64,000 nucleotides of DNA from Candidatus Peregrinibacteria bacterium (GTDB lineage Bacteria; Patescibacteriota; Gracilibacteria; UBA1369; UBA12473). The position numbers were made by a program, and so were the translations under genes. The DNA is taken from assembly GCA_018659585.1 (NCBI GenBank), contig JABJMC010000006.1:33728-97727 (forward strand), read 5' to 3'. The notes beneath the pieces were generated by a model. The model did no database searches. It was not told where the DNA came from and saw only the letters and a list, made by a program, of their open reading frames with translations. This document shows, piece after piece, positions 1,246 to 40,889 of this stretch. Every line of letters begins with the position of its first letter. Position 1 is the first letter of the stretch.

Positions 1246-3273
1246 CTAAACTCGCCCAAATTTTCTTTCCAGTTCCGAGTAAGTCATACGGATCATGGTT
1301 GGGCGGCCGTGTGCACAAGCAGAGCTGCCTTCGGTTTCGAGGAGTGATTTAATCAGGGCTTCTTGCTCATAAGTGGAAAGCCGACGATTGAATTTAATGG
1401 CGGCGCGGCAGGCCAGGGTGTGCAAAATATGGTCGTGTCGTCGCGCCGCCTCCTTCGGCGCTTGTTCATTAAGAAGGTCATCAATAAATCCTTGCATCAC
1501 CTCGCCAACATCTTCATCCACCAAAAAGTCCGGAACTGTATCAATATTAAAAGTACTGCCACCAAATTCACTAATTTCAAATCCCAAAGATCCCAAAAGT
1601 TCCAAATTTTCCTCAAGCACCGCTTTTTCACGATAATTTAGTTCCAACTGAATTGGTGTGAGCAAGGATTGCTTAGTTGGCTCGCGTTCTGTTTCATTCG
1701 CTCTAAATTTACCCAACATCACACGTTCATGAGCCGCGTGTTGATCAATTACCACAATTCCCTCATCATCCTGCGCAATTATATAGCTGTTTTTAACCTG
1801 GGCAATTGGTCTAATTCGTCCTTGAACTCGTGTTTCAGAATAAGCTTCATCAAAAGTCGCAACCGCATCATTAACAGACTCGGGCTCGCTAACAATCGGC
1901 GCCCCAAAAACCGGACTAGCCGGCGCAGCGCTGGGCGCACTACTTGGCGCTCCAAACATCGATGAAACCGGGCCGCTTGATGGCATCTCAGAAACTGTTG
2001 GTTCCTCGGTAATTCCACGCGCCGCTAATCTTTCCTGCCGTTTTTGCAAAAGGTAAGCTCTGCGCGTCGCAATATCCGAAGATCCCATTGTATACGAAGC
2101 ACTAGTCCGCGCTCCAGGAGTAAATTCACCACTCAAGCTTAAACTTGGCGCCTCGGTTGGGTCATATTCTGCTCCAGATTCCTCGACTTTTGGGCGCTCA
2201 TTTGAGACCGCCTGGATATTCTTTTTACGCATATAAGCTGGCATGTCTAAATTCGATTCTCGAAGTGGCACATTATGCATCAAGTGTTCCTTGTGAAGAG
2301 CTCCATGTACCGCAGATTTTACTACTCGAAAAACTTCCTGAGGATTTGCAAAACGAACCTCTAATTTTCGCGGATGAACATTTACATCAATTCGATTCGG
2401 ATCAATTTTAATCGAAACCACAAACACGGGGTGTTGCGTCGACGGAATTAAGTTAGAAAATCCCTCTTTGATCGCGTACGCCAACCGATGATCCTGCACT
2501 GGCCGACCATTTATAATAAAGTACTGATACTTGCGCGTCGTGCGGGCAGTCTGCGGTTTGCCAACGTGTCCACTAATCTGTAAATCACTGCCTCCATAAA
2601 AAATTTCAATCATCTCGCTGCTTACAGCTTTTCCAAATAACGCCCCAATCCTGGCCGCTATTTTTGAAGTTTTAAGTAAATCAAAAACCGTTCGATTATT
2701 TGATACAAATTTAAACGCCACCTCCGGATGAGCCAGGGACGCATCTTGAACCGCGTCTAAAATATGACGGTATTCAGTTTGTTCACTTTTTAAATATTTT
2801 TTCCGCGCTGGAGTATTAAAAAACAAATTAGAAATTTCTAATTTCGTACCCACCGAACATCCCGCCGCTGTCACCACCGGATCCTTTCCGCCTTCCATTT
2901 CTAGCCGAATCCCTCCGAGTGCATCCTCTCGTTTAGTTTGCAAAACAACATTCGAAACAGAGGCAATACTAGCCAATGCTTCTCCTCTAAATCCCAAAGT
3001 TTTCAACTTATCCAAGTCATCTAAATCACGGATTTTAGAAGTCGCGTGCCTCTCAAAAGCCAAGCGCGCATCCATCTCATCCATCCCCACACCATCATCA
3101 GTTATCACAATTTTCTCGGTCCCGCCTTTTGCAATCTCCACCGTAATATGAGTTGCCTTGGCATCAATCGCGTTTTCTAATAACTCTTTTACAATCGAAG
3201 CCGGTCGTTCAATTACCTCGCCAGCCGCGATTTGATTAACTAATTGATCTGGTAAAACACGAATTTGTCCCAT
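1246..3273 (-). CDS. mutL: DNA mismatch repair endonuclease MutL
   Basis: NQIAAGEVIERPAS, GFRGEALASI, endonuclease motif DQHAAHERVMLG, ACRAAIK, CAHGRP. Start trimmed to MGQIRVL (ATG 3273). Confidence 0.97.
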   Translation of the reverse strand: MGQIRVLPDQLVNQIAAGEVIERPASIVKELLENAIDAKATHITVEIAKGGTEKIVITDDGVGMDEMDARLAFERHATSKIRDLDDLDKLKTLGFRGEALASIASVSNVVLQTKREDALGGIRLEMEGGKDPVVTAAGCSVGTKLEISNLFFNTPARKKYLKSEQTEYRHILDAVQDASLAHPEVAFKFVSNNRTVFDLLKTSKIAARIGALFGKAVSSEMIEIFYGGSDLQISGHVGKPQTARTTRKYQYFIINGRPVQDHRLAYAIKEGFSNLIPSTQHPVFVVSIKIDPNRIDVNVHPRKLEVRFANPQEVFRVVKSAVHGALHKEHLMHNVPLRESNLDMPAYMRKKNIQAVSNERPKVEESGAEYDPTEAPSLSLSGEFTPGARTSASYTMGSSDIATRRAYLLQKRQERLAARGITEEPTVSEMPSSGPVSSMFGAPSSAPSAAPASPVFGAPIVSEPESVNDAVATFDEAYSETRVQGRIRPIAQVKNSYIIAQDDEGIVVIDQHAAHERVMLGKFRANETEREPTKQSLLTPIQLELNYREKAVLEENLELLGSLGFEISEFGGSTFNIDTVPDFLVDEDVGEVMQGFIDDLLNEQAPKEAARRHDHILHTLACRAAIKFNRRLSTYEQEALIKSLLETEGSSACAHGRPTMIRMTYSELERKFGRV

Positions 3274-3311
3274 AGTAGTCCTATGATGCCGCGCTAAGAA
3301 CAAAAACGCAA

Positions 3312-4610
3312 CTACTCTATTTCTTTCAAAGTTAAAGCCCCATTTGGACACACCGTTACACATAAACTGCAATCTTCACATAATTCAGGGTCCACGTCTG
3401 GGAAAGCTCTAGATTCAAGGCCTTCCGCTACTACAAGCGGCGTTATAGCCCGCGATCCACAAGCATCCATGCAATCCATGCAACCTGTACATGATTCTTC
3501 ATTAAGGCTTAAGGTCAACGGTTCAGTCAGGCTATGTAATTCAGGGGATCTTCCTAAATCAATATTAGTTGCAAAAAACTGCCCCAAAGTTTCTACATAG
3601 CGGCCGATTCCTTTGTGCCGTCTAGCAATTTCTTGTTCTAGATTTTTAAAGGTATCCGCAACTCGACAACGAGCCTGCACTGCATTTTCCTGCAACGCAT
3701 CATGCAACATCATTAGTCCCTCTTCTGGGCCATGCGCTAAAAAGTGCGTACATGCTTCCACAGCATCTGCCCCATTTTCAAAATATTCTTGAATATTATG
3801 AGTCGTTACCCCACCAACTGCAATATAAGGATAATCAGCCCCTAAAGTTTCTTTAACTCGGCGGCAAATTAAAGGTGAAATTTCAGACAAAGGCAATCCC
3901 GCCAGCCAACCTTCTTCTTCCGCCAACATTCTTTGCGAATCATAAGGACCTAAAGAATTAATCCCCACAATTCCGGCTGCCCCCTCTTCTTTAATCATTT
4001 GTGCAATTTCTAAATAATGGCCGTCATAATAACTAATTTTTACAAACACTGGATATATCCATCCAGCCGCCTTAACCGCAGCTCGAACCCGATCACGCGC
4101 TTTATTAGGGTCATCTTTAGAGTGATGAAGAGAAACCTCGAAAAATATTGGAGGCAAGCCTGTAAAAAGAGTCAAAAAATTTTTAATTTCACGGATGTTC
4201 CGTTCAATTTCGTCCGCCTCATATCCCACACTAATAAAAAGAGGGGAGTTAGTTTTTAAAGCCTGTTCAAGAAGAGGTAAATATTCCTGTTTAAATCTTC
4301 CCGCAAACGAAGTCTCACAATTCATACTCACTCCCGCACGCATCATAATTCGCCGCGTATCCGGTTCTCGAATACTATCTAAAGCTTCTGCCCCGCGTGA
4401 AGGTCCGCCACCCATAGTTTTCATGGCTAAAAAGGGCTGAATCCCGCGTTGAGTAATTGGGCTATCCTTATCAATATCAAGGTCGCGGCCATCAGAAGCA
4501 TGGCCCGTGAATTCTGCAATTGGTTTAATGGAAGCCGTATGCGGGCCCGAGGCCACACCAATTAAAGGAATTTCATAACCGCAAATATTTGCAGTGGGAC
4601 ATTCTGACAT
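3312..4610 (-). CDS. Dihydroorotate/dihydropyrimidine dehydrogenase-like FMN protein with C-terminal 2x[4Fe-4S] domain (PreA-like)
   Basis: GVASGP, VFVKIS, GINSL, AVGGV and GADAVEACT TIM-barrel motifs; CTGCMDCMDAC and CEDCSLCVTVCP. Start likely MSECPT (4610). Confidence 0.75.
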   Translation of the reverse strand: MSECPTANICGYEIPLIGVASGPHTASIKPIAEFTGHASDGRDLDIDKDSPITQRGIQPFLAMKTMGGGPSRGAEALDSIREPDTRRIMMRAGVSMNCETSFAGRFKQEYLPLLEQALKTNSPLFISVGYEADEIERNIREIKNFLTLFTGLPPIFFEVSLHHSKDDPNKARDRVRAAVKAAGWIYPVFVKISYYDGHYLEIAQMIKEEGAAGIVGINSLGPYDSQRMLAEEEGWLAGLPLSEISPLICRRVKETLGADYPYIAVGGVTTHNIQEYFENGADAVEACTHFLAHGPEEGLMMLHDALQENAVQARCRVADTFKNLEQEIARRHKGIGRYVETLGQFFATNIDLGRSPELHSLTEPLTLSLNEESCTGCMDCMDACGSRAITPLVVAEGLESRAFPDVDPELCEDCSLCVTVCPNGALTLKEIE

Positions 4611-24496: not shown

Positions 24497-25226
24497 TCCG
24501 GTCTTCCCATTCTTCCGCGGCTTTAAACGCCTCGACTTTGCTAGTTATATCGTGCGATTTATCTTCTTCTAATTTGCGCACCCTTTCCTGGTACCACTGA
24601 TAAGTATTTTTTTTATTAAAAGTCACACATGGCTGCAAAACATCAAGAATTGCGGTCCCTTTATGTTCTACTCCTTGTTTAATCAGCGAAGTTAAATGTT
24701 GAATATCACCGGAAAAGCCGCGCGCCACAAAAGTTGCCCCCGCGGAAACAGCAATTTTAATCGGATTAACTGGGACTTCGAGCGTCCCATGCGGTGTGGA
24801 ATGTGAACAATAACCCTCGTCACTAGTCGGGGATGTTTGACCAGTTGTCAGCCCGTAAACTTGGTTGTTTTCTACAATATAAAGAAGGTTGTGATTACGT
24901 CGCATCAGGTGTGTAAAGTGTCCCAATCCAATTCCATAACCATCTCCATCACCGCCCACAATAATTACATTTAAATCATGGTTTGCCAGCTTTACGCCAC
25001 TCGCTAGCGGCGCTGGTCTCCCGTGCAAAGTGTGAAAGCCAAAAGTCTTTATCCAGTGCGGCATTTTTGAGCCACAACCAATTCCCGAAACCACCACATA
25101 ATTCTCCTGCGGGACATCCATTTGGGTCATGGCCTGTTTAATAGCCATCCAAATTCCATAATCACCACACCCCGGGCACCAGCTCGGGAAGGTATTACTT
25201 TCTAAACTTTTAAGTTCAATAGCCAT
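24369..25226 (-). CDS. 2-oxoacid:ferredoxin oxidoreductase beta subunit
   Basis: WCPGCGD, SGIGC, HGR, GGDGD, YGLTTGQTSPT, LQPCVTFN. Confidence 0.95.
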   Translation of the reverse strand: MAIELKSLESNTFPSWCPGCGDYGIWMAIKQAMTQMDVPQENYVVVSGIGCGSKMPHWIKTFGFHTLHGRPAPLASGVKLANHDLNVIIVGGDGDGYGIGLGHFTHLMRRNHNLLYIVENNQVYGLTTGQTSPTSDEGYCSHSTPHGTLEVPVNPIKIAVSAGATFVARGFSGDIQHLTSLIKQGVEHKGTAILDVLQPCVTFNKKNTYQWYQERVRKLEEDKSHDITSKVEAFKAAEEWEDRINVGLYYQEDRPTYEDQLPQLQKGPLVDQGVVDVGPVLNRLR

Positions 25227-25228
25227 AG

Positions 25229-27076
25229 TTAGAGTAAGGATTTAATTTTTTCTACAATTTCACCTGGATAGAATGGTCGGCCATCCCATTGTAAGAATTT
25301 TTCATCAATTTCCAGCAGAGTTTCCTGGCGAATTAGTTGGCCAAGTTGAGCGTTATGATTTCCTTCAATTAAAAGAGTTTTTTTCGCTTTTTTAAGGAAA
25401 GATTTCACTTCTTCCGCTGGGAAAGGATAAAGATAAGTTGGGTGAATTAAATTAACTGTAATGCCTTGTTTTGCCAGTCGGCGCATGGCTTCTAAAACAG
25501 GCGCTTTAGTAGATCCCCAGGCCACGACCGATAATACAGCTTCATCTGGTCCGTATACATTTACCGGTGGTAACTCGGTTTTAAGCTCCTCTATTTTGCG
25601 AAGGCGTTTAGCGTGTTGAGCCGTACGCATTTCTGGAGTTTCTTCTAAATCACCAACCTCGTTATGTTCGTAACTATTAGATACGTAACGACCAGTTTTC
25701 ATTCCTGGTAGAGTACGTGGTGAAATTCCAGAATCAGTAACTTGATAACGCGGAAAATCTTCATCAATTTTGCCAGTTTCCGCGGCAATTGGTCCGCGAT
25801 CAATTTCTGTTTTCTCTCCAAAATCATCCACAGAATACAAACTTTCAGACAAATATTTATCTGACACCAATATAACTGGTATGTGATAACGTTCCGCGTA
25901 ATTAAAAGCGTGTTGAATCATTTGATAAGCCTCTTTTACATCTCCAGGAGCCATTATTAATTTGGGGAATTCATCGTGCCCAGCATTCAAAACATATTGC
26001 AAATCACCCTGGCTGGTCCAAGTTGGCATGCCTGTTCCTGGTCCGGGACGTTGCACTTCTAACAAAACTAGCGGCACCTCGGCAATCCCAGCCATACTCA
26101 AAGCTTCGTTCATTAGCGCAAATCCACCACCAGAAGTAGCGGTCATGGCCCGTACGCCAGCGTAACTAGCCCCAATCGTATGCAAAACTGCCGAAAGTTC
26201 ATCTTCGGTTTGGCGTACTACTATTCCTAATTCTTCGTCATGTTTAGCAAAAACACTCAAAGTCGAAGAAGCTGGCGTCATCGGATAAGCCGCAAAAAAC
26301 TTACATCCTGCGGCCATTGCCCCATACGAAAAAGCCTGATTTCCAGATAAAAGCATGCGGGCTGGCTCTTCGGTTGGTTTAGCGTGGTGCGGGAATTTGC
26401 TTGGATCAAAGTGCTCGTTCATATAATCATAACCTGCCTTAGCCATCTTAATATTCAAATCCACGACCTTTTCACCTTTATCTTCAAACTGATGCTTAAT
26501 CAAATCATGTAAATAGTTCAAGGGATAACTAAGTAGCGCCAACGACGCCCCCAAAGCCACCATATTTCGCATCACATCCAGCCCTTCATTCTCTTTCACA
26601 ATTTTCCCAAAAGGAACCGGGAACCAAGAAACTCCATCCTTAACTTCATCCTCCAAAATTTCCAAATCCTCTGGGTCAAAAATAATCCCCCCGTTTTGAG
26701 TCACATCATCATGGTGCAAATCAAAAGTCTCGCGATTTAAACACAGCAGCAAATCAATGGTCCGAATTTGCGAATAAAGTGGTGCCGGACTAACTCGAAT
26801 GTGATAACTATTATGACCTCCTCGAATCAAAGATGGATATTCCAAATAAGCAAACACATTCAAACCTCCTCGCGTAAAACACCGTGCAAACAATTCTCCA
26901 GTCGAGTTAATTCCCGAGCCAGCTTCGCCACCCACCATCCAAGTTACGCAACGACGTTTGTTAAAATCGCAAGTTCCCTCCGGTTGTGGCTCCGGCGAAA
27001 TTTCAGTATTAGCGTGACCATTTCCATTGGAAAGGACACGAGTTTGGGTCGATTTTTCTAAAACAACTTCTTTCAT
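25229..27076 (-). CDS. 2-oxoacid:ferredoxin oxidoreductase alpha subunit (gamma-alpha fusion)
   Basis: GGEAGSG, SLIRGGH, YPMTPAS, TATSGGG, QRPGPGTGMPT, WGST. Confidence 0.95.
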   Translation of the reverse strand: MKEVVLEKSTQTRVLSNGNGHANTEISPEPQPEGTCDFNKRRCVTWMVGGEAGSGINSTGELFARCFTRGGLNVFAYLEYPSLIRGGHNSYHIRVSPAPLYSQIRTIDLLLCLNRETFDLHHDDVTQNGGIIFDPEDLEILEDEVKDGVSWFPVPFGKIVKENEGLDVMRNMVALGASLALLSYPLNYLHDLIKHQFEDKGEKVVDLNIKMAKAGYDYMNEHFDPSKFPHHAKPTEEPARMLLSGNQAFSYGAMAAGCKFFAAYPMTPASSTLSVFAKHDEELGIVVRQTEDELSAVLHTIGASYAGVRAMTATSGGGFALMNEALSMAGIAEVPLVLLEVQRPGPGTGMPTWTSQGDLQYVLNAGHDEFPKLIMAPGDVKEAYQMIQHAFNYAERYHIPVILVSDKYLSESLYSVDDFGEKTEIDRGPIAAETGKIDEDFPRYQVTDSGISPRTLPGMKTGRYVSNSYEHNEVGDLEETPEMRTAQHAKRLRKIEELKTELPPVNVYGPDEAVLSVVAWGSTKAPVLEAMRRLAKQGITVNLIHPTYLYPFPAEEVKSFLKKAKKTLLIEGNHNAQLGQLIRQETLLEIDEKFLQWDGRPFYPGEIVEKIKSLL

Positions 27077-31746: not shown

Positions 31747-33102
<1,356 letters not shown>

Positions 33103-33131
33103 TCAGCCCCGCTATGCTAAAATGCCGCCGT

Positions 33132-33800
33132 ATGGAAATTATTTGGCACGGACAATCTTGTTTCACTTTAAAAGGATCAAAAGCTACAGTTGTAACTGAT
33201 CCTTACGGTGATATTGGTCTTAAACTCCCTAGTTTGAAGGCCAATATTTTAACTGTGAGCCACGATCACGAAGATCATAATAATGTGGCCGCAGTTGAAG
33301 ATAATCCTCAACTTTTTGATTGGCCCGGCGAATACGAAGCCAATGGTGTTATGATGACCGCTTTAAATGCTTTTCATTACCGTAAATCCGAAGAAGAAGA
33401 TGAAAAAGCAGCCGCCCGTGGAAAAACATTAATTTTTCACTTTGAAATCGATGGCATAAAAGTTTGTCATTTAGGAGATTTAGGACACAAATTAACAGAT
33501 GATATGGTCGAAGCAATCGGCGATGTTGATATTTTATTAATTCCGGCTGGCGGCGATTCAACCATTGATCACAAAACTGCTCACCAAGTTATTGAACAAA
33601 TCGACCCCCGCATAGTTATTCCTATGCACTACAAAATTCCCGGCTTAAAAGTCGAAGCTGATTTACAAGACGTAGAACCTTTCTTAAAAGAAATGGGAGT
33701 TTCTTCCAGTGAATCTCAAGAAAAATTAGAAGTCAAAGGCCGCAGCTCACTCCCAGAAGCCACCACTGCTTACGTGGTTTTGGAGGCCCAACTGGGATAA
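33132..33800 (+). CDS. MBL-fold metallo-hydrolase (lactamase_B_3-like)
   Basis: WHGQSCF, TDPY, SHDHEDHN, HLGDLG, IPMHY; ATG 33132. Confidence 0.9.
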   Translation: MEIIWHGQSCFTLKGSKATVVTDPYGDIGLKLPSLKANILTVSHDHEDHNNVAAVEDNPQLFDWPGEYEANGVMMTALNAFHYRKSEEEDEKAAARGKTLIFHFEIDGIKVCHLGDLGHKLTDDMVEAIGDVDILLIPAGGDSTIDHKTAHQVIEQIDPRIVIPMHYKIPGLKVEADLQDVEPFLKEMGVSSSESQEKLEVKGRSSLPEATTAYVVLEAQLG

Positions 33801-34060: not shown

Positions 34061-34420
34061 ATGAAAAAAATGATTCCCTTGTTGGCCGCATTAACTTTTG
34101 TTCCTGGTTGTCGCGACAAATGTTTAGAACAGAACTACACTTCGGCCCTCCAAATTGTCCGAGAATTTAACCAAGGACGTTGCCAGTCAGTCTTTAATAG
34201 TGACCAACGTGATCTTAAATGTCCCACTGGAATCCTACGCGGCAGAGTTAATAGCCATGTTTTTGAGTTAGAAATGGAATGTGGGCAAGTTCAAATTCAA
34301 ATGCAAGAGGAGGCAGGAGCTTTAGTTTGCGGTCATAATTTGCAATTAACCACCGGTCCTGAATTTATAGCCATGCGTGATCAATTCGAAGAAATTCTAT
34401 CTCAATTAGAGGTAGACTAA
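34061..34420 (+). CDS. Putative Cys-rich lipoprotein
   Basis: MKKMIPLLAALTFVPGC; six Cys residues. Confidence 0.65.
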   Translation: MKKMIPLLAALTFVPGCRDKCLEQNYTSALQIVREFNQGRCQSVFNSDQRDLKCPTGILRGRVNSHVFELEMECGQVQIQMQEEAGALVCGHNLQLTTGPEFIAMRDQFEEILSQLEVD

Positions 34421-34453
34421 ATCAGGGGTAATCGTTATTCTAAGCACGATTTT

Positions 34454-34528
34454 GTCCCCGTAGTTCAATGGATAGAACAAGACCCTCCTAAGGTTTAGAT
34501 GTAGGTTCGACTCCTACCGGGGACACCA
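34454..34528 (+). tRNA. tRNA-Arg (anticodon CCT)
   Basis: Acceptor GTCCCCG/CGGGGAC, D arm, anticodon arm AGACC-CT CCT AA-GGTTT, GGTTCGACTCC T arm, encoded CCA. Confidence 0.97.
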
Positions 34529-34530
34529 CA

Positions 34531-34560
34531 CGCAAAACGGAATGAAATTCCTGTTTTGCG
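34531..34560 (+). terminator. Hairpin downstream of tRNA-Arg
   Basis: CGCAAAACGGAAT-GAA-ATTCCTGTTTTGCG. Confidence 0.5.
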
Positions 34561-34644
34561 CAGCGAGCCAAAGGCGAGCAACCTTTGCTGGGTTTTTGCA
34601 TTCAAAATAAAAGTTTGTTTCGCGGCGGAGCGGCGGATTTTTAT

Positions 34645-34673
34645 TTGACACCTTTTCGAAAACCATTTAAATT
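34645..34673 (+). promoter_or_regulatory. sigma70 promoter for large ncRNA candidate B
   Basis: TTGACA(34645-50)-17 nt-TAAATT(34668-73). Confidence 0.65.
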
Positions 34674-34679
34674 ACGTCC

Positions 34680-35415
34680 GCGTTCACAATTCGTATCAGT
34701 AAGACATTCCCCACCCCTTTCCAATTTTGGTGGAGGAATTTCTTCGATACACGTGATCCTTGACAGTGCGAAATGTATAAATTGATTAACGGTGGTTATC
34801 TGAGAGTTTCTTATCAGTTAAGAGGTTCCTAGATGACCACCGCTCGCGGTGGACTGAGTGCCCCTTCGGGGGCCCATAGCTGAGGTCCTACACCTAATTA
34901 GGAGAGCTGTCCCCATTGGATTGGGACCCCATAGCATAGAGAACATCGCAGAACTCAACAAAAAACCAAAACCTGGGCGAAAAAAAACCGTACGCCGACG
35001 TCCGCAAGCAAAGTGAGTGCTGTATTGCGCTGATGTAGAAGCTGCAGCCAAGAGCTGGATGCGCTGATGTTGATGCTGAGCTGAAGTAGACTACTCATAA
35101 CGCTCCGGAAACGTGGTCGTACCCCACCAATATAGCCCGACACCCCGGTGATTGCTTGTGGTGAGACTTTCTGACTATAACCCTCGTGTGAGGGGAATAT
35201 CTTAGTTCAGTTTTGTTCGAACCTCAAGGTGGAGACTTAGCAACTTCGCTGCTGTCGCGTTGGCTCCCCAACACGGAGTTTCATCGCGTTTAGTGATGCG
35301 GGTCGCCAAAGTTCCCCACAATCAGGTCACTGCCCATCTCTGTCGCTTCCTTCACGGGTCGCGGCAGGGGTGGGACTGGGAGGAGGATCAATCAATCCAC
35401 ATCTCGCACTGTCCA
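34680..35415 (+). ncRNA. Large ornate ncRNA candidate B (~650-735 nt)
   Basis: Closing stem GACAGUGCGAAAUGU(34762-76)/ACAUCUCGCACUGUC(35399-413) plus AUUGAUU/AAUCAAU; many internal helices with G-U pairs and a C(UUCG)G tetraloop. Confidence 0.8.
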
Positions 35416-35436
35416 TTCCCTAAATTTAGCTTAAGT

Positions 35437-35775
35437 ATGGTCAGGTCATTACCAAGCGATGTAGCTGACAAAATAACAAGTTTTTATCAAACACATAAAG
35501 ACCTAAGCGGAAAAGATTGGAACCCTGATCAAGGCCAGCCAAGAAATTGTCCCGCTTTTGATGATAAAAAACATGATCTTAATACAGGTGGAGGTTTCAC
35601 TGAAATAGACAAAATATGTAGACAAATTTTTCATTGCCGAGTGTGTGAAGCTTGCAATACTTTAATTAGAGGAGATATTGCTTTTCAAGACCAAGCTAAC
35701 GAACAAGTTAGACGCATAGACGAAGGAGTCCCAGCCTTAGGTGATGACGAATTTTACGGAACAATCGACGACTAA
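35437..35775 (+). CDS. Small Cys-rich hypothetical protein directly downstream of ncRNA B
   Basis: ATG 35437 (MVRSLPSD..., 112 aa); NCPAF ... ICRQIFHCRVCEAC. Confidence 0.6.
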   Translation: MVRSLPSDVADKITSFYQTHKDLSGKDWNPDQGQPRNCPAFDDKKHDLNTGGGFTEIDKICRQIFHCRVCEACNTLIRGDIAFQDQANEQVRRIDEGVPALGDDEFYGTIDD

Positions 35776-35777
35776 AT

Positions 35778-37541
35778 TTATTCCAAATACCCCCCAACTT
35801 GCAGTCCCCACAGTCTTTCGTAAAGGCTGTTTTTTTGACGAATCAATTCTGTGTGTGTGCCTTCCTCTACAATTTTCCCATCATTCAAAACAATAATCCG
35901 ATCCATATTTACAATTGTCGAGAGTCGATGCGCAATAATAAAAGTTGTCTTGTTTTTCATCAAATTATGCAAAGCCTCTTGAATCAATTTTTCAGATTCA
36001 GAATCCAAGCTAGAAGTAGCCTCATCAAGAATCAAAATTTTAGTATTACTTAAAATTGCGCGGGCAATGGCCACTCGCTGGCGTTCGCCACCAGACAATT
36101 TTACCCCGCGCTCTCCAACATAAGTTTTATAGCCTTTGGGGAATTTTTTAATAAAATCATGACAACGTGCGAGTTTTGCAGCCGCCATCACCTCCTTATC
36201 CGAGGCGCCAAGTCGGCCATAACGAATATTTTCTATAATCGTACGATGGAATAAAATCGGATCTTGCGGAACCAGAGCAATTTGTTTACGCAAACTATCT
36301 TGAGTAACTTTTGAAATGTCATGACCATCCACCAAGATTTTCCCTTTTCCAACATCAAACAGTCGCAATAACAGTTTAGTAACTGTGGATTTTCCACCTC
36401 CAGACGGACCAATCAGAGCAATCTTTTCGCTGGGCTTAATTTTTAGGGAAAGTCCTTTAATAACGCCAGTACCGTCTTCATAAGAAAAACGAACGTTTTT
36501 AAATTCAACGCGACCATGCACGATTTTAATCTTTTGCGCATCTGGAGCATCTTGAATCTCCCAATCAGTATTCAAAACTTTTGTCATCTCTTCCGCATCG
36601 GCAAATCTTTCGTAAAGTCGTTGCAAATTATGCCCAAAATGCCAGAGCTGCCTAAACAGTTCTAACAGATAAAATTGAACTAAAACAAAGTCACCAACAG
36701 TAATTTCTCCTTGTTGCCACAACTTAATCGCCACAAACATAAGCAAGGCATTAAGCGCCAAGGCAAACACTCCTTGAACAGTCTCAACATGCGTCCCAAA
36801 AAACCAAGACGCCTTTTTCTTTTTTCGCCAATCTTCCGAAACTTTTTTAAACTTAATAGTCTCCTTATTAAGGTTCGCAAACAACTTAATATTAATGTTG
36901 TTCATAATCGTATCCGCCAAATTTGCAGTCACCTTAGTATCGGCGCGAACAGATTTAAGATCGTAATGTTTAATCTTATAAAGAGTGACGAAATAGCTAA
37001 AAACTATAAAAAACACACTCCAAATAAGTAGCGGCACTCCAAGTTTCCAACTTAGATATAAAAGAACGCCATTAGCAATTATCGTCCGGATCGCAATCGG
37101 AATAAATTCAAAAATAATAATGTCAAAAATTCCCTCAAACGCGTAACTAATTCGGTTCATTTTTTTAACCAGCCCTCCTGTAAAACTATTATTAAAAAAG
37201 TTATAAGAGTGACGATGCAAATGCTCAAAACATTCATCCAAAATATTGCGCATTACATTCGTTTCCAGAACAGACATTGTATAAAGAAGCGCACGCCAAC
37301 ACATCATATTGGCGAAATCTACTCCCACCATAATCGCAAGAAGCGTTAAAAGCGTTCGGACTGCATCATCAACAACTTCGGCCTCCACAATTGTATCAAT
37401 AAATTCTTTGTAGATAACCGGGAAAACCATACTCAAACTAATCGCCATCACAATCGAAAAAATCGAAACAGCGGTTAGCACCTTGTAACGCGCCAAGTGT
37501 TTTAAATAAAATCGAATTGTTTGTTGACGTAGGTTTTTCAT
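35778..37541 (-). CDS. ABC exporter, fused permease/ATPase (MsbA/Atm1-like)
   Basis: TM domain, GPSGGGKST, LSGGERQR, ILDEATSSLD, IAHRLST. Confidence 0.95.
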   Translation of the reverse strand: MKNLRQQTIRFYLKHLARYKVLTAVSIFSIVMAISLSMVFPVIYKEFIDTIVEAEVVDDAVRTLLTLLAIMVGVDFANMMCWRALLYTMSVLETNVMRNILDECFEHLHRHSYNFFNNSFTGGLVKKMNRISYAFEGIFDIIIFEFIPIAIRTIIANGVLLYLSWKLGVPLLIWSVFFIVFSYFVTLYKIKHYDLKSVRADTKVTANLADTIMNNINIKLFANLNKETIKFKKVSEDWRKKKKASWFFGTHVETVQGVFALALNALLMFVAIKLWQQGEITVGDFVLVQFYLLELFRQLWHFGHNLQRLYERFADAEEMTKVLNTDWEIQDAPDAQKIKIVHGRVEFKNVRFSYEDGTGVIKGLSLKIKPSEKIALIGPSGGGKSTVTKLLLRLFDVGKGKILVDGHDISKVTQDSLRKQIALVPQDPILFHRTIIENIRYGRLGASDKEVMAAAKLARCHDFIKKFPKGYKTYVGERGVKLSGGERQRVAIARAILSNTKILILDEATSSLDSESEKLIQEALHNLMKNKTTFIIAHRLSTIVNMDRIIVLNDGKIVEEGTHTELIRQKNSLYERLWGLQVGGYLE

Positions 37542-39619: not shown

Positions 39620-40747
39620 ATGAATGAAACCCCTATTTTGCATGTTGATGCAGACGCCTTTTTTGCATCTGTTGAACAACGACTCGAACCTAAATATCGA
39701 GGGAAACCAGTGATAGTGGGAGGAAGTCATCGCGGAGTGGTTAGTAGTGCTAGTTACGAAGCCCGTCAATTTGGGATTCACTCCGCGATGCCTATATTTA
39801 GAGCTCGTAAACTCTGTCCACACGGGATTTTCATTAAAGGTAGTCACCACACTTATGCCGAATTTTCCCAGGCTATGTTTCAGATTTTCAAAAAATACAC
39901 TCCTACCGTAGAAATGACCTCCATCGACGAGGGCTATCTTGACCTTACCGGTACCACCAGGCTTCACAAAGCCGCTTACCACCAAATCGCCGCTCATCTT
40001 CTTTGCGAGGTCGAAAAATCCCTGGGGATTACTCTTTCCGGTGCTCTTTCTTCCTGTAAAATTGTTTCCAAAATTGCTTCATCGCGTTTTAAACCACGAC
40101 GACTTTCTTGGGTTCACGCGGCTCACGAAAAGCAATTCTTGGCCTCCTTGCCCCTCAAAGAAATGCCTGGAATCGGCCCCCAAAGCCTCCCTAAATTTAC
40201 CCGCCTCGGTCTCCAGACAATCGGCGATTTGGCCGAACTCCAGTTCGAGGCCATGTGGCAGATGTTTGGTGGCTACGGCATGGTTCTTTGGGAGCGCGCC
40301 AACGGCATTGATCATCGCCCGGTTTCACCACACGCCCCTAAACGAAAATCAATTTCCGAAGACAAAACTTTCCCTATTGATCTCGATTCCCCTCAACTCC
40401 TTCTCGAGGAATCTTCTCGCATGCTCAAAAAACTGTGCTACCAAATCCGCAAAAATAATCGTTTTGCCGCTACTCTCACTCTCAAAATCCGTTACTCAGA
40501 CTTTGCCACTTACACCCACCAACGTTCCCTCGACCAACCTTCTAACGTTCCCTGCGGCCTCCTTCCAACCCTCAAATTACTTCTTAAAAAACGCGATTCA
40601 TCCCGCCGCGTCCGCCTGCTCGGAGTTAGTCTTTCCAACCTCCAGAGCCAAGTTCAGCTTGAGCTCTTCGGCCGCAGCGCAAAGAGCCAACATCTCGAGC
40701 AGTCGTTAGATACACTCCGCAAAAAGTATGGACTTGGGGTTATTTAG
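39620..40747 (+). CDS. dinB: DNA polymerase IV (Y family)
   Basis: HVDADAFFASVE, SYEAR, SIDEGYLD, LKIRYSDF, RLLGV, clamp motif QLELF. Confidence 0.95.
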   Translation: MNETPILHVDADAFFASVEQRLEPKYRGKPVIVGGSHRGVVSSASYEARQFGIHSAMPIFRARKLCPHGIFIKGSHHTYAEFSQAMFQIFKKYTPTVEMTSIDEGYLDLTGTTRLHKAAYHQIAAHLLCEVEKSLGITLSGALSSCKIVSKIASSRFKPRRLSWVHAAHEKQFLASLPLKEMPGIGPQSLPKFTRLGLQTIGDLAELQFEAMWQMFGGYGMVLWERANGIDHRPVSPHAPKRKSISEDKTFPIDLDSPQLLLEESSRMLKKLCYQIRKNNRFAATLTLKIRYSDFATYTHQRSLDQPSNVPCGLLPTLKLLLKKRDSSRRVRLLGVSLSNLQSQVQLELFGRSAKSQHLEQSLDTLRKKYGLGVI

Positions 40748-40889
40748 TCGCAACAAATCTACGCCCTCATTGAGGGAGCGTCATAATATGCTAAACTACC
40801 CTTAATGACCTCCCACTTCGTCAATCATAAATATTTGTAATTTAATCGCGCCCAGCGCGTTTGTTTAAGCTAGAAATTAATTCCTACAC

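What the first reader, a model, noticed from the sequence alone, without database searches (positions are those of the whole stretch)
34645..35775. ~700-nt ornate ncRNA next to tRNA-Arg, built like an rRNA precursor and followed by a small Cys-rich gene
Seen: promoter TTGACA-17-TAAATT, a leader hairpin (34693-34750) and a boxA-like GATCCTTGACAGT (34755-67). A long stem pairs the ends: 34762-76 with 35399-413 (14/15 bp) and 34781-87 with 35390-96. It encloses ~600 nt of helices: GGUGGUUAUCU/AGAUGACCACC, GCCCC(UUCG)GGGGC, GUCCC/GGGAC, a long interrupted helix 35147-76/35301-32, and CCCAUCUCUGUCGC/GCGGCAGGGGUGGG. G-U pairs consistently favour the + strand, and there is no credible ORF. Known: a boxA overlapping an end-pairing stem is how pre-16S rRNA is antiterminated and cut by RNase III, and large ornate RNAs such as GOLLD and ROOL often lie beside tRNA genes. 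Inference: a processed, stable ~600-nt RNA, possibly a new class, with the 112-aa Cys-rich protein (35437-35775) as a candidate partner. The weak 16S-like snippets (GUAC..CACC..GCCCGACAC at ~35119-43; GACUGGG at 35374-80) are suggestive only.
Basis: partly seen in the sequence, partly recalled or inferred. Interest (0 to 1): 0.88.

Follow-up and report, generated by a model that had tools for sequence, protein, structure and literature searches.

The report
rRNA-style boxA cassette, non-coding cargo
This stretch is one copy of a previously undescribed family of transcription units in a tiny marine Peregrinibacteria genome that borrow the design of a ribosomal-RNA precursor (an antitermination signal plus a stem pairing the two ends) to carry GC-rich cargo, here a non-coding cargo ahead of a small orphan gene.

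Summary
The described anatomy is largely real. There is a promoter-like site, a leader hairpin and a boxA. A 23-bp end-pairing helix closes about 600 nt of ORF-free, GC-enriched sequence. No Rfam family matches.

Two results change the reading.

(1) The boxA differs at one of 12 positions from this genome's own 16S-leader boxA. In all 4 relatives whose pre-16S flanks I could read, boxA lies inside the leader-trailer helix, exactly as here.

(2) The locus is not unique. At least 8 units in this 1.4-Mb genome share the plan of boxA-like site, 5' arm, GC-rich cargo and 3' arm, and its congeners hold others. Some cargoes encode secreted proteins or lipoproteins. Others are ORF-free strings of very stable hairpins (z -6 to -8). 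A covariance model of that family's 5' module picks this site as the best hit in the window (E 0.011).

This copy is the weakest member. Its 486-nt interior folds no better than shuffles (z -0.3), and it has no homologue in any other genome searched. The Cys-rich ORF is an orphan and is not a conserved partner.

The most likely reading is a Nus/boxA-driven, RNase III-processed leader cassette. Transcription is untested, because no RNA run holds it.

The parts
34454..34528 (+). tRNA-Arg(CCT), the upstream neighbour, followed by two terminator-like hairpins (34569-34587 and 34615-34633)
34645..34673 (+). sigma-70-like promoter TTGACA-17-TAAATT; the only promoter-like site on the + strand between the tRNA and the Cys-rich ORF
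   Evidence: 10 of 12; consensus match only
34693..34750 (+). leader hairpin (20 bp), in the place of the hairpin that precedes boxA in the 16S leader
34755..34767 (+). boxA-like GATCCTTGACAG(T). It differs at one of 12 positions from the own 16S-leader boxA GATCTTTGACAG, and shares the 10-mer CCTTGACAGT (and the T that follows the 12-mer) with the 16S boxA of relative G004 (GCTCCTTGACAGT)
34762..34787 (+). 5' arm of the end-pairing (leader-trailer-like) helix; it starts inside boxA
34790..34842 (+). hairpin 1: two-tier, 23 bp with 5 G-U pairs, -29.3 on + against -22.0 on -. The family model R1 aligns it to the family's hairpin 1
34845..35330 (+). cargo interior: ORF-free, GC about 0.5, includes the UUCG hairpin (34860-34873); overall no more stable than shuffles
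35333..35374 (+). 3' hairpin: 17 bp with 4 G-U pairs, -30.0 on + against -16.3 on -
35390..35413 (+). 3' arm of the end-pairing helix; it ends 23 nt before the ATG of the ORF
35437..35775 (+). 112-aa Cys-rich orphan ORF. Codon usage is native-like, there is no promoter of its own, and it is followed by a terminator-like hairpin at 35810-35830

Best explanation
The stretch is a divergent, species-specific member of a lineage-specific family of 'rRNA-precursor-style' transcription cassettes. The family occurs in a marine Peregrinibacteria (CPR) genus.

The shared plan is: a promoter, one or more leader hairpins, a boxA, then a 5' arm that starts in or next to boxA. That arm pairs with a 3' arm 350-930 nt downstream, and the two arms bracket a GC-rich cargo.

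Inferred mechanism, by analogy with rRNA operons:
- NusB/NusE bind the boxA RNA and make RNA polymerase processive across a long, untranslated, hairpin-rich stretch.
- The two arms pair as a leader-trailer helix.
- RNase III cuts that helix.

In this copy the cargo carries no gene and has little structure beyond its two end hairpins. Cutting would therefore release an RNA of about 600-650 nt. It would also leave the downstream orphan Cys-rich ORF on an mRNA with a leader of roughly 25-35 nt.

Shown: the sequence anatomy, the match to the lineage's own rRNA leaders, and the existence of the family.
Inferred: transcription, Nus binding, RNase III cleavage, and any function of the released RNA.
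For: boxA:
- GATCYTTGACAG occurs exactly twice in the 1.41-Mb genome: in the 16S leader and here.
- The family-degenerate boxA pattern lies outside ORFs of 100 aa or more at only 3 places: the 16S leader, here, and C3:3023-3034.
- The same 12-mer sits 118 nt upstream of 16S in G002 and about 96 nt upstream of 23S in G026.

Design:
- In 4 of 4 relatives with readable 16S flanks, the 34-42-bp leader-trailer helix starts 0-3 nt from the boxA start.

Family:
- Nine units have end helices of 18-35 bp, at -23 to -43.5 kcal/mol. Seven are in G000 and two in G002. An eighth G000 unit is on C49.
- Their arms differ in sequence but stay complementary. One example is GACAGTGCGAAATG/CATCTCGCACTGTC here against GATAGCACGAGATG.../...CATCTCGTGC in C3.
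- GC islands carry flanking inverted repeats in 13 of 80 cases, against 22 of 400 random controls.
- Model R1, built from 4 family members without this locus, gives its best hit in the window at 34717-34843. The hit scores 18.1 bits, E 0.011, and is full length. It aligns boxA, arm and hairpin 1. The next hit scores 11.4 bits.
- Hairpin 1 of the family has 3 pairs with compensatory changes.

Strand:
- Hairpin 1 and the 3' hairpin are much better on the + strand.

Machinery:
- nusB (C35:776-1150) and the RNase III gene (C35:1225-1611) are neighbours.

Transcription unit:
- The only promoter-like site on the + strand is at 34645. There is no terminator-like site between the RNA and the ORF, and there is one after the ORF.
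- The ORF's codon-usage score is 0.182, against 0.258 +/- 0.093 for real genes.

Assembly:
- The junctions are real DNA. Ten runs hold all sampled words, and contigs in other runs bridge them with 0 differences.
Against: - There is no expression evidence. No RNA run holds the stretch, which says nothing either way.
- The interior has z -0.3. Other ORF-free family members give -6.1 to -8.0, and known RNAs give -1.8 to -3.9.
- The end helix shows no RNA-strand bias. Across 9 units it is better on + in 5 and on - in 4, and here the - strand is clearly better.
- The boxA differs from the own rRNA boxA at a core position (T to C). That C does occur in G004's 16S boxA.
- Genome-wide, the degenerate boxA pattern is no commoner than its reversed control (19 against 19). 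A loose 'half-boxA plus 14-bp stem' scan is also at chance (19 against 29).
- The R1 hit is only E 0.23 on the scale of the whole genome.
- Rho's RNA-binding domain was not found in this 96.7%-complete genome. An anti-Rho role for boxA is therefore doubtful.
- This copy has no orthologue, even in the same genus. There the tRNA-Arg to ABC-transporter gap holds unrelated genes.
Confidence: 0.5

Rival explanations
1. Relic cassette. The unit is a decayed member of the family whose cargo has lost its gene or its hairpin string. It may still be transcribed, but it has no function of its own, and its flanks survive only because the decay is recent.
For: - The interior is indistinguishable from shuffles, unlike other members.
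- It is species-specific.
- It lies in a variable hotspot beside a tRNA, where congeners carry other genes.
- Coding members show that cargoes can be genes.
Against: - The flanks are intact: promoter 10 of 12, boxA, a 23-bp end helix with one mismatch, and two hairpins of 17 and 23 bp whose G-U pairs work only on the + strand.
- GC stays at 0.5-0.55 in a 0.40 genome.
- tblastx finds no remnant of any other unit's cargo, and no Pfam trace appears in any frame.
- The native-looking downstream ORF has no other promoter-like site.
Confidence: 0.22
2. DNA-level inverted repeats. The arms are recombination sites of an invertible segment (a phase-variation switch) or the terminal repeats of a non-autonomous mobile element, and not an RNA helix.
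For: - The arms show no strand bias, and here they pair better on the - strand.
- The only mismatch in the 15-mer is A.C on +, which is G.U on -.
- GC islands are enriched for flanking inverted repeats.
- Cargoes are often surface proteins, which are classic targets of phase variation.
- The genome has 4 serine-recombinase genes.
Against: - boxA sits at the arm in at least 6 units, and the same layout occurs in true pre-16S rRNA, which is not invertible.
- The arms differ between units, unlike sites for one recombinase or one transposon family.
- The element is single-copy in the genome.
- I saw no target-site duplication by eye.
- No recombinase gene lies beside it. All 4 lie in long open frames (446-564 aa) on other contigs, or 13 kb away from the C36 unit.
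- All contigs laid were in the reference orientation with no strand-change joints. These were low-depth contigs, which drop rare variants.
Confidence: 0.13
3. One reading: a stand-alone, processed, ornate RNA of about 600 nt, of a new class, that works together with the Cys-rich protein.
For: - The closed, multi-hairpin architecture, and the whole-element z of -3.76.
- No Rfam match.
- Sister units of the C3 type really are extremely structured and ORF-free.
Against: - The interior is not structured beyond chance.
- There is no homologue of the RNA.
- The protein has only heterogeneous weak hits to unrelated repeat proteins.
- The C3 unit has no co-oriented downstream ORF.
Confidence: 0.08
4. 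Chance: an ordinary long intergenic region with a few fortuitous hairpins and a fortuitous boxA-like word.
For: - Promoter and terminator scans are at shuffle level.
- Similar inverted repeats of 15 nt at 93% occur elsewhere in the surrounding 5 kb.
- The degenerate boxA count equals its control.
Against: - 0 of 300 shuffles reproduce the long-range repeat, and 1 of 1000 the end duplex.
- The boxA, the arm and hairpin 1 coincide at the best R1 hit in the window.
- The same plan recurs at 7 further loci in the genome.
Confidence: 0.03

Closest known systems
Bacterial rRNA operon leader: boxB-like hairpin, boxA, and the 16S leader-trailer helix cut by RNase III (rrn antitermination complex)
   Same: - The order is promoter, hairpin, boxA, then a 5' strand of a long-range helix that pairs with sequence beyond the cargo.
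- The boxA differs at one of 12 positions from the organism's own.
- boxA is embedded in the helix, as in 4 of 4 relatives' pre-16S.
- Papers: the abstract of PMC10250234 describes the leader-trailer helix as essential and boxA as contributory in E. coli. Passages of PMC5725501 give the gamma-proteobacterial boxA consensus GYTCTTTAANA.
   Different: - The cargo is not rRNA. There is no Rfam SSU or LSU hit, and alignment to pre-16S is at chance.
- The cargo is about 600 nt.
- The helix sequence is unrelated to that of the rRNA leader.
- There are several such units per genome, and some carry protein genes.
boxA elements outside rRNA (E. coli and Salmonella suhB 5' UTR; putative boxA upstream of other genes)
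   Same: A boxA in the leader of a non-rRNA transcript. PMC5725501 (passages read) reports that such regulation is widespread, and that boxA more than 50 nt upstream and boxA on non-coding RNAs were left out of its survey.
   Different: - Those cases have no end-pairing helix.
- There, boxA lies close to the start codon and represses the gene.
- Here boxA is about 680 nt upstream of the ORF and overlaps a bracket helix.
- That CRISPR arrays carry boxA is my recollection only. One search listed papers that mention both terms, but I did not read them.
Large ornate bacterial RNAs (GOLLD, ROOL; also OLE, raiA, HEARO)
   Same: Several hundred nucleotides, ORF-free, next to a tRNA gene, and closed by a long-range stem. 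Sister units are strings of very stable hairpins.
   Different: - No covariance-model match, even at E<=10 in a 1.5-kb search.
- There is no conserved core. In the family only the first 100-250 nt or so are conserved between species.
- This copy's interior is not significantly structured.
Invertible DNA segments (invertons) and MITE-like elements
   Same: Inverted repeats of 13-17 bp or more bracket 0.4-1 kb, and surface-protein cargo is found in some units.
   Different: - The arms are not shared between units.
- A boxA sits at the arm.
- No adjacent recombinase, no target duplication, single copy, and only one orientation seen.

Membership tests
rRNA operon (pre-16S/23S) leader-trailer unit | boxA matching the organism's rRNA boxA, downstream of a promoter and a hairpin | tested here: met
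   GATCCTTGACAG against the own 16S-leader GATCTTTGACAG. The pattern occurs only at these two places in the genome.
rRNA operon (pre-16S/23S) leader-trailer unit | a long-range helix that pairs leader with trailer and overlaps boxA | tested here: met
   A 23-bp helix starting at position 8 of boxA. The layout is the same in 4 of 4 relatives' pre-16S.
rRNA operon (pre-16S/23S) leader-trailer unit | the enclosed RNA is ribosomal RNA | tested here: not met
   No SSU, LSU or 5S hit. Local and collinear alignment to pre-16S is at chance.
GOLLD / ROOL / other curated large RNAs (Rfam 15) | a match to the family covariance model | tested here: not met
   Only the tRNA passes the gathering score. At E<=10 in 34400-35900, only noise appears outside the tRNA. 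Sister units also have no hit.
boxA-bracketed GC-rich cassettes of this genus (family defined here) | a 5' module (leader, boxA, arm, two-tier hairpin 1) recognisable by model R1 | tested here: met
   Best hit in the window at 34717-34843: 18.1 bits, E 0.011, full length. Genome-wide it is weak, E 0.23.
boxA-bracketed GC-rich cassettes of this genus (family defined here) | a 3' arm complementary to the 5' arm, 350-930 nt downstream, enclosing GC-rich sequence | tested here: met
   Loop of 596 nt and 23 bp. GC is 0.47-0.55 against a genome value of 0.40.
boxA-bracketed GC-rich cargo, ORF-free 'hairpin-string' subtype (C3 type) | a cargo far more stable than shuffles | tested here: not met
   z -0.3 here, against -8.0, -6.1 and -6.85 in C3u1, G002u2 and G002u1.
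Inverton | both orientations present in a population; recombinase nearby | tested here: inconclusive
   Only the reference orientation was seen in contigs of 4 runs, with no strand-change joints, but contigs drop rare variants. The 4 serine-recombinase genes lie elsewhere.
MITE / insertion sequence remnant | several copies with the same terminal repeats, target-site duplication, transposase remnant | tested here: not met
   Single copy. No Pfam trace in six frames. No duplication seen by eye.

The most novel reading that the evidence does not exclude
A Peregrinibacteria genus has turned the rRNA-precursor design into a general chassis for expressing and processing GC-rich cargo. The design is boxA plus a leader-trailer helix, and nusB and the RNase III gene are encoded side by side. 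The cargo is 55-70% GC in a 40% GC genome.

Some cargoes are surface-protein genes. Others are a new class of processed non-coding RNAs: ORF-free strings of hairpins that are more stable than the cell's rRNA, and whose sequence turns over completely between species while the 5' module is conserved.

The window's unit would be a functional member. Its RNase III processing would both release an RNA of about 600 nt and mature the mRNA of an orphan Cys-rich protein.
Probability: 0.3. Interest if true: 0.85.

Novelty: new variant of a known kind. Interest (0 to 1): 0.62.

Why it matters
boxA/Nus antitermination and leader-trailer helices are textbook features of rRNA operons. boxA alone is known on a few mRNAs.

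A family of non-rRNA units that copies the whole design would show that the rRNA-maturation machinery has been recruited for other transcripts. The design in question is the hairpin, the boxA, and the bracket helix that overlaps boxA. The organisms involved have minimal genomes, use almost no Shine-Dalgarno sequences, and have no detected Rho.

The family would also explain part of the odd GC-rich islands in these AT-rich genomes. In addition, it gives a concrete set of candidate RNase III substrates and Nus targets to test in an uncultured lineage.

For this particular locus the gain is more modest. It moves from 'unique ornate RNA' to 'least structured copy of a cassette family'.

Tried and rejected
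Known RNA.
- Rfam at the gathering score over the window and at E<=10 over 34400-35900 found only the tRNA and noise.
- RNase P RNA, tmRNA and a partial 16S lie elsewhere in the genome.
- A weak-SSU search at E<=10 found nothing here.

Hidden gene or other genetic code.
- Table 25 ORFs, Pfam on the table 25 ORFs and the neighbouring genes, Pfam on ten stop-to-stop frames and PHROGs gave nothing.
- Codon scores of the interior ORFs are -0.03 to -0.15.

Pseudogene of the congeners' gene at this site.
- tblastn with the G002, G001 and G005 proteins gave only noise.

Homologues of the RNA.
- None in the own genome, in 60 relatives, or among phages and plasmids.
- 400 genomes of the class gave only 22-36-nt hits. 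I examined the recurring hits at query 618-645. By my own reading of alignment A1 they fall in a GGGSIRIH-coding stretch, which I recall as an aspartyl-tRNA synthetase motif.
- The neighbouring ABC-transporter loci in metagenomes were at most 54% identical.
- The exact 21-mer was absent from all species genomes.

rRNA relic. Alignment to pre-16S is at chance.

Type III toxin-antitoxin repeats. Only a 2-copy 8-mer lies upstream, and one 19-nt repeat pair lies in the interior (D5).

Expression. No RNA holder is listed. The four DNA runs laid were low-depth contigs with 0 differences across the RNA, so they gave neither variation for covariation nor RNA ends.

Cys-rich protein.
- The word-based search found only itself, and I searched near lengths only.
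- The Atlas holds a model at pLDDT 0.43 and gave no usable hit.
- The full HMMER search gave 8 weak hits to unrelated repeat proteins.

Failed analyses.
- duplexfold on 200-280-nt flanks gave meaningless energies. I used only the sequences printed, and one search replaced those analyses.
- The loose stem scan was uninformative.
- The stricter scan was at control level.

Not done.
- I ran no structure prediction, complex prediction or fold search.

Literature.
- No listed paper paired boxA with CPR terms (top 10 of 486 listed).
- None paired boxA with RNase III, lipoprotein and GC-rich cargo (1 irrelevant paper).
- Supplements were not opened.
Full report
SETTING.
- The window is C37:33728-97727 of a 1.41-Mb, 49-contig, 96.7%-complete genome with GC 0.40.
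- Two congeners' records are labelled Candidatus Peregrinibacteria and Peribacteria MAGs.
- The DNA occurs in 20 listed seawater or marine metagenome runs, none of them RNA.
- The local gene order is:
  - enolase (-)
  - an MBL-fold protein (+)
  - a 126-aa ORF (+)
  - tRNA-Arg(CCT), 34454-34528
  - an ORF-free stretch, 34529-35436
  - a 112-aa Cys-rich ORF, 35437-35775 (+)
  - a convergent ABC transporter, 35778-37541 (-)
.

OBSERVATION.
- The closing helix is more than chance. 0 of 300 dinucleotide shuffles of the 757-nt region have a repeat of 15 nt with at most 1 mismatch at least 200 nt apart. 1 of 1000 shuffled end pairs reaches its -26.0 kcal/mol.
- Sliding windows place the significant local structure at the two ends only. 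34700-34849 has z -4.24 and 35300-35449 has z -2.83, both weaker on the minus strand. From 34850 to 35250, |z| stays at or below about 1.3 on either strand.
- The 486-nt interior has z -0.3. Under the same procedure the genome's 16S 5' part gives -1.78, two 16S segments of a congener give -2.85 and -2.52, RNase P RNA gives -3.88 and tmRNA gives -2.22.
- 'Ornate' therefore overstates this copy. It is a closed loop with a strong hairpin at each end.

NOT A KNOWN RNA, NOT A GENE, NO RELATIVES.
- Rfam finds only the tRNA.
- No frame shows a protein family, under table 11 or table 25.
- BLAST, nhmmer and exact-pattern searches find no relative in the own genome, 60 relatives, 400 genomes of the class, phage and plasmid records, held loci or all species genomes.
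- The tRNA-Arg to ABC-transporter synteny is kept in congeners, but the gap holds unrelated genes: a 252-aa secreted-type protein in G002, 3.5 kb of genes in G001, and a 307-aa membrane protein in G005. The site is a variable hotspot.
- Population contigs are identical to the window, so covariation cannot be tested on this copy.

THE boxA IS THE LINEAGE'S OWN.
- The genome's 16S leader reads: promoter TTGACT-17-TAGAAT, a hairpin, then TGATCTTTGACAGC.
- The site here is TGATCCTTGACAGT. GATCYTTGACAG occurs at exactly these two places in the genome.
- In relatives the same 12-mer lies 118 nt upstream of 16S (G002) and about 96 nt upstream of 23S (G026).
- It also lies about 128 nt upstream of a tRNA in G001, and in two promoter-proximal 5' leaders in G021.
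- The one deviating base, the C at position 5, is present in the 16S boxA of G004, GCTCCTTGACAG.
- In 4 of 4 relatives with complete 16S flanks, the 34-42-bp leader-trailer helix begins 0-3 nt from the boxA start. That is the layout seen here.
- The interior, however, shows no similarity to pre-16S. This is a mimic of the design and not a decayed rRNA gene.

A FAMILY.
- The only other ORF-free boxA match in the genome is C3:3034-3023 on the minus strand. It has the same plan:
  - a strong promoter and leader hairpins
  - boxA GTTCTTTGATAG
  - a 14-nt arm perfectly complementary to a site about 650 nt downstream
  - an ORF-free cargo of GC 0.5-0.62 in between
  - no Rfam hit
.
- Its first 250 nt or so are conserved at 76-78% in two congeners, and the rest is not alignable. 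G002 carries two such units in tandem.
- Further units in G000 are a second unit on C3 and single units on C32 and C36. Two units on C26 and one on C49 have cargoes that are ORFs with signal-peptide or lipobox N-termini.
- One of those cargo proteins has 12 relatives at 45-86% identity. None of the cargo proteins has a Pfam family.
- Across nine units the end helices are 18-35 bp. The arms differ in sequence but remain complementary. Several share a GCACGA motif after boxA, with matching CGTGC in the 3' arm. This locus instead has GTGCGA paired with TCGCAC, which amounts to two compensatory pair changes relative to the C3 unit.
- A model of the 5' module (R1: 4 sequences, 155 positions, 32 pairs) finds that module in all four genomes of the genus. 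Otherwise it gives only one weak hit among 100 relatives.
- R1 places its best hit in the window exactly on this locus, at E 0.011.
- ORF-free cargoes of the C3 type are strings of long GC-rich hairpins with z -6.1 to -8.0, stronger on the + strand. Between species, similarity is confined to about the first 100 nt after boxA and is equal in all six frames. It is therefore at the RNA or DNA level and not at the protein level.

MECHANISM (inferred). nusB and the RNase III gene are adjacent on C35.
- By analogy with rRNA operons (abstract of PMC10250234; passages of PMC5725501), I propose three steps. boxA recruits NusB/NusE. The polymerase then reads through the long untranslated, hairpin-rich cargo. 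The arms pair and RNase III cuts them.
- At this locus the only promoter-like site for the Cys-rich ORF is the cassette's own. There is no terminator-like site before the ORF and there is one after it. The 3' arm ends 23 nt before the ATG.
- The ORF has native-like codon usage. The genome essentially lacks Shine-Dalgarno motifs, with 1-3% of genes carrying any tested 4-mer.
- Processing would thus also mature that mRNA.
- Rho's RNA-binding domain was not found. If boxA is functional, it more likely serves processivity and folding than protection from Rho.

WHAT WEAKENS THIS.
- There are no RNA data.
- The arms show no strand bias.
- Loose motif-plus-stem scans are at control level.
- This copy's cargo looks unstructured and is confined to one species.
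- The family membership score is modest.
- The relic and DNA-inversion readings therefore remain open. The genome has four serine-recombinase genes in long open frames, none next to a unit.

VERDICT. The locus is, however, one divergent and weakly structured copy of a cassette family and not a unique ornate RNA. The Cys-rich protein is an orphan with no evidence of partnership. The family itself is the more interesting result. My searches found no description of it in the paper library.

Noticed in passing
G000:C3:2362-3165 (minus strand; locus L061), with orthologues at G002:C10 (L065, boxA starts at 937 and 2088), G003:C51 and G001:C134: ORF-free boxA-bracketed units whose cargo is a string of long GC-rich hairpins (z -6.1 to -8.0). 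They have a conserved 5' module of about 250 nt and a cargo that cannot be aligned between species. No Rfam hit. This is a better candidate for a new structured-RNA class than the window's copy.
   Followed up: partly
G000:C26:23428-24416 and 24803-25624 (L078); C49:about 2440-3413 (L079); C32:375-1183; C36:50986-51406; C3:3222-3897: Further units with a boxA-like site and end-pairing arms around GC-rich cargo. The C26 and C49 cargoes are ORFs with lipobox or signal-peptide N-termini and no Pfam family. One has 12 relatives at 45-86% identity. A tRNA gene follows the C49 unit.
   Followed up: partly
G000:C35:776-1150 and 1225-1611: The nusB gene and the RNase III gene are immediate neighbours on the same strand.
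   Followed up: no
whole genome G000: There are 80 GC-rich islands (GC of at least 0.52 over 150 nt, 350-3500 nt long, some reaching 0.6-0.71 GC) in a genome of GC 0.40. 13 of 80 have flanking inverted repeats, against 22 of 400 random controls.
   Followed up: partly
window 33150-33299: The strongest local folding signal in the scanned 4.5 kb (z -6.0 on +, -4.5 on -) lies inside the MBL-fold ORF 33096-33800.
   Followed up: no
G001:C6:9323-9334 (L049); G021:C4:13457-13468 (L044) and C69:8627-8638 (L052): The exact rRNA-type boxA GATCTTTGACAG lies about 128 nt upstream of a tRNA gene in G001. In G021 it lies in two promoter-proximal 5' leaders of protein genes, one of which starts with a lipoprotein-like signal peptide.
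   Followed up: no
whole genome G000: Rho's RNA-binding domain (PF07497) was not found. Only 1-3% of 542 long genes have any tested Shine-Dalgarno-type 4-mer upstream. The congener G003's 16S ends in ...GGACCACCTCTTTT rather than the usual anti-SD tail.
   Followed up: no
window 39831-40796 (C37:73558-74523): A 13-nt inverted repeat with at most 1 mismatch flanks another GC-enriched stretch that overlaps the ORF 39620-40747. It may be chance.
   Followed up: no
L078:2653-3009 (G000:C26:25652-26008): A RelB-family antitoxin ORF (Pfam E 3.3e-12) starts just downstream of the 3' arm of the second C26 unit.
   Followed up: no
G001 gap between tRNA-Arg and the ABC transporter (L010): A 94-aa ORF with a CxxC...C cluster lies next to the ABC transporter, in the same relative position as the window's Cys-rich ORF. 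No similarity was detectable.
   Followed up: partly
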